Virus record (IMG/VR): IMGVR_UViG_2541047862_000007
Length of the DNA stretch: 19,570 nt
Strand: one strand, 5' to 3'
From: a virus
Taxonomy: Duplodnaviria; Heunggongvirae; Uroviricota; Caudoviricetes
Made by a program: the position numbers and the translations under genes. The notes beneath the pieces are model-generated. The model was not told the origin of the DNA. It saw only the letters and a program-made list of their open reading frames with translations, and ran no database searches. Shown in pieces: positions 17,430-18,355 of the stretch (position 1 is its first letter; every line of letters starts with the position of its first letter).

Positions 17430-18233
17430 TTAATCCGGCTTTGCGTTCTTTTGGCTGTTGTCTCGGTTAATAGGGCAGGCAGTCCTCTCTATGAGCGTTG
17501 CAAGAGCATTACTTGCCCCCCACTGCTTAAGCTCCCTGGTTATCGCTTCTTGATTTCCCCTGGTGGCAAAATCATTTTCTGGATCGTAATTGGCCCACTC
17601 TCTGTTTCTAATCTCAAGAGCCTTAGCTAATGGGTCTTTATCCCAGTATTTATATAAGTGTATCGGGCGCTCTTGCTCTAACTGCTCTATCCTTGCCCTT
17701 AACTCTGCGTTTTCTCTTTCCAGCATTGCGATTTGGGATAATAAATCATCCTCTGTACGCAACTCTTTCTTTTCAATATCGCGTCCTTGTGCCTCGTCAT
17801 TTTCAGAAGAGTTAGCGCCTTCCAGCTTCGTTAACGCGTCAAGGACATCGGGAAAAATTGCGAAAATTTCACCCCTTATAAATCCAATGTTCTCAAATTC
17901 GGGATCTTCCCAATAACCGGACACCAGAAAACCATTTTCATCCCTCTCACCAGGTAAACAACCATGTTTCCGAACCGCATCCAGATTTCTATAAAGAACA
18001 TCATAATCAAATTCATCCCGATACGGGTTACAAAAAGATTCCAACAGCTTAAATTCATTTACTGTGTACAGGCGGATATGTTCTCCGCTTATTCTCCTGA
18101 GTATCCAAGTTATGAGATCTGAAACATCATAATCATCACCAGCGACCTTAAGCACGACCTCAAGAAATTCACGTAAAGAAATAAAATCTTTTTTGTATTC
18201 GTTTAATTCGGCATGAATATCAATCATACGCAC
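17430..18233 (-). CDS. Hypothetical protein with central coiled-coil, 267 aa
   Basis: GAGGTG Shine-Dalgarno 6 nt upstream of the ATG; AT-rich relative to neighbours; heptad-like segment LLSQIAMLERENAELRARIEQLEQE; no recognisable catalytic motif. Confidence 0.7.
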   Translation of the reverse strand: MRMIDIHAELNEYKKDFISLREFLEVVLKVAGDDYDVSDLITWILRRISGEHIRLYTVNEFKLLESFCNPYRDEFDYDVLYRNLDAVRKHGCLPGERDENGFLVSGYWEDPEFENIGFIRGEIFAIFPDVLDALTKLEGANSSENDEAQGRDIEKKELRTEDDLLSQIAMLERENAELRARIEQLEQERPIHLYKYWDKDPLAKALEIRNREWANYDPENDFATRGNQEAITRELKQWGASNALATLIERTACPINRDNSQKNAKPD

Positions 18234-18355
18234 ACCTCAGCGTCCTCTACTGTAGTGGCTGTGCCAGCCCGTCGAGGTATACGGTTTTTCGGGAGCGACC
18301 CTAGACACAGCCTTTTCTTTCGTCGCTCAAAGTCTACTACTGTATACTCAACCAG

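What the first reader, a model, noticed from the sequence alone, without database searches (positions are those of the whole stretch)
17430..18355. Uncharacterised coiled-coil protein between integrase and alpA, with a weak LexA-like box upstream
Seen: an AT-rich 267-aa ORF with a heptad-rich centre and no recognisable catalytic motif occupies the slot between int and alpA. Upstream of it, overlapping the end of int, CTGTATACTCAACCAG (about 18340-18355) matches the LexA box CTGT-N8-ACAG with one mismatch in the right half-site. Inference: accessory genes in this position in integrative islands are often defence, anti-defence or induction-sensing functions; the LexA-like site would tie expression to the SOS response but the match is weak.
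Basis: partly seen in the sequence, partly recalled or inferred. Interest (0 to 1): 0.5.

Follow-up and report, generated by a model that had tools for sequence, protein, structure and literature searches.

The report
SOS-gated regulator cassette of a phage satellite
The unknown gene between the integrase and alpA is the swappable payload of a conserved control cassette (LexA site, promoter, known RNA leader, gene, matching DNA palindromes) that probably decides when this E. coli phage-satellite island switches on.

Summary
Both observations are real. The ORF is more likely 265 aa from the ATG at 18227 than 267 aa from the GTG.

Three features were missed:
- The Rfam int-alpA RNA (RF02996) lies at 18244-18311, directly upstream of the ORF.
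- A LexA-type box sits 45-75 nt upstream of that RNA in all 35 related loci examined, 27 of them from different species. Only the CTG...ACAG bases are invariant.
- Three ACCCTnAGGGT palindromes plus a half-site lie between the ORF and alpA.

The protein has a variable N-domain, a leucine zipper and a highly conserved 65-aa C-domain. No Pfam, PADLOC, PHROG, PDB or viral-structure relative was found. Its family was found only in the int-alpA slot, in every member locus examined. The palindromes follow the C-domain (11/12 loci with it against 0/18 without, p=2e-7), not the AlpA subtype or the N-domain. Other slot genes carry their own repeats.

Best reading: an SOS-controlled, cassette-specific DNA-binding regulator of alpA, the satellite's master activator. 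DNA binding and the direction of control are inferred. There is no evidence that it is a defence gene.

The parts
18356..19570 (-). Tyrosine integrase (404 aa) next to tRNA-Gly. It is the upstream neighbour, and its stop codon TGA is at 18356-18358.
   Evidence: Pfam Arm-DNA-bind_3, Phage_int_M and Phage_integrase. tRNA-Gly lies 165 nt beyond its start in the near-identical record NZ_CP070115.1.
18338..18357 (.). LexA (SOS) operator candidate TACTGTATACTCAACCAGTC (minus strand GACTGGTTGAGTATACAGTA).
   Evidence: HI 8.44 on a matrix of 18 published E. coli boxes. 0.005 expected per window, and it is the only site in the window with HI below 15. A box at the same position is conserved in 35/35 loci, with only CTG...ACAG invariant.
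18331..18359 (-). Putative sigma-70 promoter: -35 ATGACT (18359-18354), 17-nt spacer occupied by the LexA box, -10 TAGACT (18336-18331).
   Evidence: Read by eye. It scores 8/12, below the scan tool's 9/12 threshold (one search finds none). In relatives the tool finds TAGACA-17-TAGACT, with the -35 inside the right half of the box. Inferred, not shown.
18244..18311 (-). int-alpA RNA motif (Rfam RF02996), the structured leader directly upstream of the ORF.
   Evidence: 46.9 bits against a gathering score of 35.8. In my own 24-sequence alignment 99.2% of cells are paired, 5 pairs show compensatory changes, and 0 of 500 shuffles reach the observed values.
17430..18227 (-). Slot gene 'X' (265 aa; stop codon 17430-17432). 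GAGG ribosome-binding site at 18234-18237.
   Evidence: It is a fused form of a two-gene module seen in other genera: gene A (about 100 aa, N-domain) plus gene B (about 150 aa, coiled coil and C-domain).
17823..18227 (-). Variable N-terminal domain (aa 1-135).
   Evidence: 33-75% identity among family members while the C-domain stays nearly invariant. The same N-domain is also found joined to an unrelated C-terminus. AlphaFold pLDDT is about 85.
17670..17753 (-). Coiled coil / leucine zipper (aa 159-186), preceded by a disordered acidic linker (aa 139-158).
   Evidence: Single long helix in both models. L169, E172, L176 and L183 are invariant. Only sub-threshold bZIP/DivIC-type matches.
17463..17669 (-). 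Conserved C-terminal four-helix domain (aa 187-255; ERPI..DPL..AIEIRN.EWANYDP..TRGNQ.AI..EL..A..IE.VACPI.R). Candidate DNA-binding domain.
17302..17414 (.). Array of palindromes: ACCCTCAGGGT (17404-17414), ACCCTCAGGGT (17382-17392), ACCCTAAGGGT (17338-17348), and half-site ATACCCTCAGG (17302-17312). Candidate operators.
   Evidence: All three full copies in the window lie in this 195-nt spacer, against 0.019 expected per window. Present in 11/12 loci with the C-domain and 0/18 without it (Fisher p=2.2e-7).
17242..17270 (-). Hairpin CCTCGT...ATGAGG that includes the alpA ribosome-binding site.
   Evidence: Read by eye. The equivalent CTCGTAA-N13-TTACGAGG is conserved in front of alpA in most loci. 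Not tested further.
17037..17234 (-). alpA (65 aa), the downstream gene that the cassette is proposed to control.
   Evidence: Pfam Phage_AlpA, E 2.4e-19. AlpA is the essential activator of the related island EcCICFT073 (PMC6092414).

Best explanation
Proposed function. The ORF encodes the island-specific regulator of a phage-satellite (PICI-like) island. It is the exchangeable payload of a conserved control cassette that runs in this order: a LexA operator overlapping a promoter, the int-alpA RNA leader, the slot gene, an array of slot-specific palindromes, and alpA.

Proposed mechanism:
1. In undamaged cells LexA sits on the box and keeps the unit off.
2. DNA damage, which is also the signal that induces helper prophages, removes LexA. 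The leader and X are then transcribed.
3. X dimerises through its leucine zipper.
4. The conserved C-terminal domain of X binds the ACCCTnAGGGT palindromes just upstream of alpA.
5. This binding sets how much alpA is made, either by activating alpA transcription or by gating read-through into alpA.
6. The variable N-terminal domain is the input side. It plausibly binds a helper-phage protein, as the staphylococcal island repressor Stl does.

Shown here: the gene and its fixed position; the statistical and comparative strength of the LexA box; the RNA motif; and the exclusive co-occurrence of C-domain and palindromes.

Inferred, not shown: LexA binding, the promoter, DNA binding by X, the sign of regulation, and the sensor role of the N-domain.
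For: LexA box. HI 8.44 lies within the range of proven boxes, and 0.005 sites are expected per window. In 35/35 loci anchored only on the RNA motif a box lies 45-75 nt upstream, with HI 3.1-13. One of them (Raoultella, L023) is identical to the E. coli dinD box. Across 32 unique contexts the only invariant columns are CTG...AC.G. The box stays with the downstream unit when int is separated from it by a terminator or up to about 190 nt. In relatives the promoter-like site TAGACA-17-TAGACT overlaps the box.

Leader. The Rfam int-alpA RNA match is above the gathering score and shows covariation. It is followed 71-86 nt later by a slot gene in every locus.

Synteny. C-domain proteins from E. coli, Salmonella, Enterobacter and Proteus all lie between int and alpA.

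Palindromes. They are present in 11/12 loci with the C-domain and 0/18 without it (p=2.2e-7). They are independent of AlpA subtype: AlpA identity between the two groups reaches 0.96. They follow the C-domain and not the N-domain: L026 and L029 have the C-domain with other N-termini and carry the sites or half-sites, while L031 has the N-domain only and carries none. With a single central base they cannot form useful RNA hairpins, and their twofold symmetry fits a zipper dimer.

Generality. Other slot families carry their own repeats in the same place.

Literature. No global regulator is known for Gram-negative PICIs, and AlpA is their activator (PMC6092414).
Against: - In this window the candidate promoter matches only 8 of 12 consensus positions, and the scan tool reports none.
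- The loci are homologous, so conservation of the box is not 35 independent events.
- Co-occurrence of gene and palindromes could reflect co-inheritance of one cassette rather than binding.
- The loci were anchored on one DNA pattern, so only close variants of the RNA motif were sampled.
- In the only studied relative, EcCICFT073, alpA expression is SOS-independent. That island, however, has an empty slot, no RNA motif and a broken box.
- There are no expression data.
Confidence: 0.45

Rival explanations
1. X is a cargo gene with a defence, anti-defence or exclusion function. The palindromes are unrelated regulatory or terminator elements.
For: The position just downstream of int corresponds to a variable slot that holds at least 10 unrelated gene families, as defence hotspots do. 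The gene is AT-rich relative to the island. SOS-induced accessory genes are common in prophages (general knowledge).
Against: PADLOC, Pfam, PHROG and NCBIfam find nothing for X. Among 22 other slot proteins the only matches are DUF6387, a family of unknown function (5 of 22), two marginal coiled-coil Pfam hits and one weak PADLOC coiled-coil match (JetC, E 5e-4). X has no catalytic, toxin or membrane features. Each slot family is tied to its own DNA repeats directly in front of the master activator gene. The island's obvious cargo lies at the other end, at 2005-9666.
Confidence: 0.15
2. X acts through protein contacts only, and the palindromes are bound by another factor. For example, X could be an antirepressor of the helper prophage, or a cofactor of Int or AlpA in excision, with the conserved C-domain holding a conserved partner.
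For: No DNA-binding fold was detected. The C-domain is extremely conserved, as expected for an interface with a conserved protein. AntA and BRO-N antirepressor-like genes follow alpA.
Against: The palindromes occur only where the C-domain occurs, irrespective of AlpA subtype and of the other island genes. A different binder would have to be inherited together with the C-domain, and none is apparent in the cassette.
Confidence: 0.15
3. X plus its repeats form an origin-binding (Rep and iteron) or partition-like module rather than a transcription switch.
For: A DNA-repeat array next to the gene for its presumed binder is the classic layout of replicons. Some other slot cassettes carry 4-6 direct repeats (ACTTCCA) that look like iterons.
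Against: The island already has a DUF927 primase-helicase with SSB. The array sits in the 195-nt space immediately before alpA in every locus. EcCICFT073 replicates with an empty slot.
Confidence: 0.07
4. The LexA-like palindrome is not used by LexA. It could be the site of another dimeric protein, or it could control something else such as an antisense transcript into int.
For: On the plus strand TATACT (18343-18348) is a 5/6 match to a -10 hexamer that would point into int (read by eye). The Salmonella locus L003 and locus L007 have degraded boxes, with HI 14.1 and 11.8 and one with CCG in place of CAG. There are no binding data.
Against: The invariant bases are exactly the LexA contact triplets at the LexA spacing. 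HI values lie within the proven range, and one box is identical to the dinD box. The box keeps a fixed distance to the downstream RNA motif, not to int.
Confidence: 0.12

Closest known systems
Stl / Rpr master repressors of SaPIs and Gram-positive PICIs
   Same: [quoted passage not shown] It controls the island's excision and replication programme, and in SaPIs it senses a helper-phage protein (PMC6092414).
   Different: Stl has an N-terminal helix-turn-helix, is transcribed divergently from the operon it represses, and is SOS-insensitive. X is co-directional with alpA, sits behind a LexA box and an RNA leader, has its conserved (putative DNA-binding) domain at the C-terminus after a zipper, and has no sequence or fold similarity to Stl. 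Whether X represses or activates is unknown.
Immunity cassettes of temperate phages (repressor plus its operators, exchanged between otherwise similar genomes)
   Same: A gene and its cognate DNA sites are swapped as one block between conserved flanks. Here the block runs from the start codon of the slot gene to about 70 nt before alpA.
   Different: There is no CI-like protein, no divergent promoter pair, and the block is driven by a shared LexA-controlled leader.
int-alpA RNA motif (Rfam RF02996; Weinberg et al. 2017, function unknown)
   Same: The window carries a full-length member above the gathering score, between int and alpA.
   Different: Rfam lists it as a candidate sRNA. Here it is consistently the 5' leader of a variable protein-coding gene and is preceded by a LexA operator. 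I found neither link in the searchable literature, and the motif's own supplementary description could not be read.
LexA-controlled inducers of mobile elements (SaPI operon I, cited as ref 7 in PMC6092414; coliphage 186 Tum antirepressor, from my own knowledge)
   Same: A LexA box on a mobile element ties part of its induction programme directly to the host SOS response, instead of relying on repressor self-cleavage.
   Different: Here the controlled product is a variable, apparently DNA-binding protein placed before the master activator. It is not a packaging operon or an antirepressor.
EcCICFT073 and other E. coli PICIs
   Same: The same backbone order: int, alpA, divergent YlcI/YnfO, Icd-like, DUF4222, primase, SSB, PerC.
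   Different: EcCICFT073 has an empty int-alpA spacer, no int-alpA RNA, a broken box (CAC in place of CAG) and a divergent AlpA, and its alpA is SOS-independent. The window's island has no recognisable capsid or packaging genes, and instead carries a four-gene cargo of unknown function.

Membership tests
LexA (SOS) box of Gammaproteobacteria | Palindrome CTG-N10-CAG with an AT-rich centre | tested here: met
   CTGTATACTCAACCAG at 18340-18355. CTG and CAG are intact, and CCAG right halves occur in seven proven boxes.
LexA (SOS) box of Gammaproteobacteria | Heterology index within the range of experimentally validated operators | tested here: met
   HI 8.44 symmetrised and 6.4 unsymmetrised. The training boxes span 1.8-12.2, and dinB scores 10.1. 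P = 2.7e-7 per position.
LexA (SOS) box of Gammaproteobacteria | Overlaps the promoter it represses | tested here: inconclusive
   Window: ATGACT-17-TAGACT, read by eye, only 8/12, not reported by the tool. Relatives: TAGACA-17-TAGACT at 9/12 overlapping the box. No transcription start data.
LexA (SOS) box of Gammaproteobacteria | Bound by LexA, with the gene derepressed by DNA damage | not testable with these tools
   Needs gel shift or ChIP, and reporter assays.
Rfam RF02996 int-alpA RNA | Covariance-model score above the curated gathering score | tested here: met
   46.9 bits against 35.8, full-length match to model positions 1-71.
Rfam RF02996 int-alpA RNA | Base-paired stems supported by compensatory changes | tested here: met
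   99.2% of cells paired, 5 pairs with changes on both sides, 0 of 500 shuffles reach the observed values, and slid controls give 30-47% paired.
Gram-negative PICI (phage-inducible chromosomal island) | int, alpA and primase/replication genes in conserved order at a specific att site, with no phage structural or lysis genes | tested here: met
   Same order as EcCICFT073, integrated at tRNA-Gly.
Gram-negative PICI (phage-inducible chromosomal island) | Packaging or capsid-redirection genes, and induction and transfer by a helper phage | tested here: inconclusive
   No capsid, terminase or similar genes recognised in the window. Helper dependence cannot be tested here.
Known anti-phage defence systems (PADLOC-DB 2.0) | Match to a defence protein model | tested here: not met
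   No hit for X. Among 22 other slot proteins there is only one weak coiled-coil match to JetC, E 5e-4.
bZIP-type DNA-binding proteins | Basic DNA-contact region immediately N-terminal to the leucine zipper | tested here: not met
   The segment before the zipper is acidic and disordered (aa 139-158, pLDDT below 50). bZIP matches are below threshold.
Helix-turn-helix / winged-helix DNA-binding domains | Recognisable fold or profile match | tested here: inconclusive
SaPI Stl-type master repressor | Divergent transcription from the controlled operon, N-terminal HTH, SOS-insensitive | tested here: not met
   X is co-directional with alpA, has no HTH profile match, and has a LexA box upstream. It may work like Stl, but it is not a member.

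The most novel reading that the evidence does not exclude
The variable genes in the int-alpA slot are the missing master regulators of a large class of Gram-negative phage satellites. Each would be a new DNA-binding protein with its own operators in front of alpA, made only when LexA is cleaved, translated from a structured leader (the int-alpA RNA, whose CACCUC loop can pair with the gene's ribosome-binding site), and carrying a variable domain that reads a helper-phage protein. Together these would form an 'SOS AND helper present' gate on satellite induction. That would also give the orphan int-alpA RNA a function.
Probability: 0.3. Interest if true: 0.85.

Novelty: new variant of a known kind. 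Interest (0 to 1): 0.65.

Why it matters
How Gram-negative phage satellites decide to switch on is an open question. The founding paper states that no global repressor is known and that it is unclear how the helper phage raises alpA expression (PMC6092414). This cassette offers concrete, testable parts for a large set of such islands across Enterobacterales:
- a LexA operator;
- a promoter;
- an RNA leader that so far had no function;
- a family of exchangeable regulators with matching operators.

It would also link antibiotic-induced DNA damage directly to the mobilisation of islands that carry cargo genes. In addition, the protein's conserved C-domain has no detectable structural relative, so it may be a new DNA-binding module.

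Tried and rejected
- Profile searches for X against Pfam, PHROGs, NCBIfam and PADLOC gave only coiled-coil noise.
- tblastn against 50,697 phage records found nothing.
- A PDB sequence profile search gave only leucine-zipper noise.
- Foldseek against viral structures found nothing below E 0.5. The afdb50 library was unavailable.
- The first genome-contig scan with protein patterns found no relatives. The second scan, with the RNA core pattern, gave the 27 loci used here.
- The palindromes as RNA terminators: the tool flags two. I rejected this as the main role because the stem has a one-base centre, the T-run is not conserved in other genera, and four copies recur with conserved sequence.
- AlpA as the binder of the palindromes: rejected because near-identical AlpA proteins occur with and without them.
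- The N-domain as the binder: rejected because L031 has the N-domain without the sites, while L026 and L029 have the sites without it.
- K-12 CP4-57 yfjH as a relative: it lies on the opposite strand, has no Pfam family, and the locus has no RNA motif.
- The supplementary text of the paper that described the int-alpA motif is not held.
- ICEKp258.2, an island with DUF6387 next to alpA, was not induced by ciprofloxacin (PMC10763509). I did not check whether it has the box.

Full report
**Setting**

The window is an E. coli chromosomal island. Its DNA is 99.9% identical to a stretch of strain FDAARGOS_1298 that lies between yqeG and tRNA-Gly/actS. All the relevant genes are on the minus strand, in this order:
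- int (18356-19570)
- the ORF in question (17430-18227)
- alpA (17037-17234)
- an AntA-family gene and a BRO-N gene
- a divergent YlcI/YnfO gene
- Icd-like, DUF4222, a DUF927 primase, SSB, ProQ/FinO and PerC genes
- four large genes of unknown function

 This is the same backbone as the experimentally studied satellite EcCICFT073: int, alpA, YlcI, Icd, DUF4222, primase, SSB, PerC. I therefore treat the element as a PICI-like phage satellite. No packaging genes were recognised in it.

**Checking the observation**

The ORF is real.
- The GTG at 18233 gives 267 aa. The ATG at 18227 (265 aa) has a GAGG 7 nt upstream, is the RefSeq start, and matches the N-termini of homologues.
- GC content is 41.7% against 49.6% for the window.
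- The DNA occurs in 171 of 5426 complete E. coli genomes.

- I took 18 E. coli LexA boxes from Table 4 of PMC3009722, built a heterology-index matrix, and scored the 20-mer TACTGTATACTCAACCAGTC (18338-18357).
- HI is 8.44 symmetrised and 6.4 unsymmetrised. That is inside the range of the proven boxes, and better than dinB, polB, dinG and ftsK.
- The one 'mismatch' (CCAG) is shared by seven proven boxes.
- The expectation is 2.7e-7 per position, or 0.005 per window. The next best site in the window has HI 15.
- Only the last two bases of the 20-mer overlap the int stop codon.

Between the box and the ORF lies a full-length match to Rfam RF02996, the int-alpA RNA, at 18244-18311 on the minus strand (46.9 bits against a gathering score of 35.8). 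In my own alignment of 24 loci the three stems are 99.2% paired, with five pairs showing compensatory changes, and no shuffle out of 500 reaches the observed values. The sequence from the motif to the start codon (AGAGGGCGYGAGGTGGCGTnATG) is conserved even where the downstream gene is unrelated.

**The LexA box belongs to this RNA-led unit**

I searched one genome per species with the core of the RNA motif and obtained 27 loci in 27 species of Enterobacterales, plus one Pseudomonas.
- Together with the loci found through the protein, all 35 have a LexA-type box 45-75 nt (mostly 62) upstream of the motif, with HI 3.1-13. The Raoultella box is identical to the E. coli dinD box.
- Across 32 distinct sequence contexts, the only invariant columns in the box and its 10-nt flanks are C-T-G and A-C-(A)-G at the LexA spacing. 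The interior and the flanks vary.
- Where int ends earlier and a terminator or up to about 190 nt intervenes, the box stays with the RNA motif.
- In the common arrangement the promoter scan finds TAGACA-17-TAGACT, with the -35 inside the right half of the box.
- In the window a shorter spacing gives ATGACT-17-TAGACT, with the box filling the spacer. I read this by eye. It scores 8/12 and is below the tool's threshold.

The box is therefore very probably a functional operator, but LexA binding and the transcription start are not shown.

**The protein**

X has four parts:
- a variable N-domain (aa 1-135);
- an acidic disordered linker;
- a 28-residue zipper-like helix (aa 159-186);
- a very conserved four-helix C-domain (aa 187-255).

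Its relatives:
- No Pfam, PHROG, NCBIfam or PADLOC family matches, and no phage record encodes it.
- An exhaustive profile search of 1.8 billion representatives found only 99 clusters. In these the C-domain is joined to many different N-termini or stands almost alone, and the N-domain is also joined to a different C-terminus. Apart from one 515-aa member with a LacI-type sugar-binding domain, probably a gene fusion, and sub-threshold coiled-coil hits, none carries a Pfam domain.
- In Salmonella, Enterobacter, Proteus and others the same module is split into two genes: about 100 aa (N-domain) and about 150 aa (zipper plus C-domain). X aligns with the second at 39% identity, E 7e-32.
- In every case looked up, the module sits between int and alpA.

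**The palindromes**

The 195-nt spacer between X and alpA holds all three ACCCTnAGGGT palindromes of the window, plus a half-site. The expectation is 0.019 full copies per window.

Among 30 loci where alpA could be located:
- Full palindromes are present in 11 of 12 loci whose slot gene has the C-domain, and in 0 of 18 without it (Fisher p=2.2e-7).
- AlpA subtypes do not separate the two groups. Mean identity is 0.78 within each group and 0.76 between them, and near-identical AlpAs occur on both sides.
- The sites follow the C-domain rather than the N-domain (L026, L029 and L031).
- Between genera the spacer diverges but the palindromes persist.
- Other slot families have their own repeats in the same place: ACTTCCA four to six times, TACCGCAAnTGCGGTA twice, and a TTACCGGAAG inverted repeat.

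The slot is thus a block made of a gene and its cognate DNA sites, exchanged between a conserved leader and a conserved alpA-proximal segment.

**Interpretation**

The most economical reading is that X is a dimeric, sequence-specific DNA-binding regulator that acts on the palindromes in front of alpA. Its own synthesis would be under LexA control, and its variable N-domain would be an input domain. AlpA is the essential activator of the related EcCICFT073. For such Gram-negative islands no global regulator is known, and how the helper raises alpA expression is unresolved (PMC6092414).

I cannot tell whether X activates alpA or gates read-through from the LexA-controlled promoter. No good sigma-70 promoter is predicted directly before alpA in the window, which is compatible with either. 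EcCICFT073 itself has an empty slot, no RNA motif and a box broken at the invariant G. This agrees with its reported SOS-independent alpA expression, and shows that two kinds of regulatory region exist on the same backbone.

**Rivals**

- A defence or anti-defence cargo gene. The slot is variable and the gene is AT-rich, but there are no convincing defence-model hits, and every slot gene family is tied to repeats before alpA.
- A purely protein-binding role, with the palindromes bound by something else.
- A Rep and iteron, or partition-like, module.
- A palindrome that is not used by LexA.

None of these is excluded. Each explains fewer of the observations than the regulator model.

**Novelty**

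The int-alpA RNA is a described but functionally orphan motif. I found no paper linking it to LexA, or to a variable downstream gene with cognate operators. The protein family has no characterised member. In kind, this is a regulatory or immunity-type cassette of a mobile element. Its composition is new: LexA operator, structured leader, zipper protein with an unknown C-domain, and operator array before an AlpA activator.

All mechanistic steps beyond sequence conservation are inferences. They need the experiments listed under next steps.

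Noticed in passing
window 2005-9666 (minus strand): ORFs 7135-9666, 5075-7135, 2319-5096, 2005-2319: Four tightly packed or overlapping genes (843, 686, 925 and 104 aa) form the island's cargo end. None of them has any Pfam or PADLOC match. RefSeq calls all four hypothetical. This could be an undescribed defence system.
   Followed up: partly
window 1-1197 (minus strand): An IS110-family transposase (DEDD_Tnp_IS110 plus Transposase_20) lies at the left edge of the window. 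The otherwise near-identical island in NZ_CP070115.1 has no such gene annotated there.
   Followed up: no
window 18273-18280 and 18232-18237 (minus strand): The invariant loop of the second hairpin of the int-alpA RNA (ACACCUCU) is complementary to the ribosome-binding region GAGGUG of the slot gene. The minimum-energy fold of the leader pairs these two segments instead of forming the Rfam structure. This may be a translational switch. The fold z-score is only -1.4.
   Followed up: partly
window 17242-17270 (minus strand); same place in L011, L014, L023, L025, L028, L031, L040, L041: A conserved hairpin (CTCGTAA-N13-TTACGAGG; in the window CCTCGT...ATGAGG) includes the alpA ribosome-binding site. 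alpA translation may therefore also be controlled.
   Followed up: no
window 18331-18336 and 17251-17256; relatives: The pentamer TAGAC recurs as one or two copies just after the LexA box (GTAGACTT..GTAGACGA in most loci) and again just before the alpA ribosome-binding site (AATAGACGTTA). It may be a shared protein site, for example for AlpA autoregulation.
   Followed up: no
L008, L044, L028, L040, L046, L021, L037, L039, L007/L024, L009 (spacer between slot gene and alpA): Each unrelated slot-gene family has its own repeats before alpA: TACCGCAAnTGCGGTA twice; ACTTCCA four to six times; a TTACCGGAAG inverted repeat; a TTTGACATGACA inverted repeat; TTCAAAGCGGATAA; ATAGTRCCCACC four times. The 'gene plus cognate sites' pattern therefore generalises beyond X.
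   Followed up: partly
L048 6289-6308 (EcCICFT073, NC_004431.1 about 1379288): The empty int-alpA spacer of the model PICI EcCICFT073 holds TACTGTTTTTTTATACACTG. This is a near-LexA box with the invariant G replaced (CAC in place of CAG). It may be a decayed operator.
   Followed up: partly
L007 143-370, L009 313-503, L010 792-1019: Related islands carry the P4-type C4 antisense RNA and isrK RNA next to 'ash family' genes. The window has neither; the only Rfam hit in it is int-alpA. The immunity regions of these islands therefore differ.
   Followed up: no
window 17235-17429: Most E. coli relatives have about 32 more bases in this spacer (matches of 425 against 393 bases, split in two pieces). 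The number of palindrome copies may therefore vary between strains.
   Followed up: no
window 14581-15771 (minus strand, 396 aa): This long mechanical ORF overlaps the small annotated genes of the relative (Icd-like, YlcI/YnfO on the other strand and others) and is probably not a gene.
   Followed up: no
PMC10763509 (ICEKp258.2 of Klebsiella ST258): A DUF6387 protein sits directly next to an AlpA-family regulator in this ROD21-like genomic island. The variable slot before alpA may therefore extend to that island class. Ciprofloxacin did not induce its excision.
   Followed up: no
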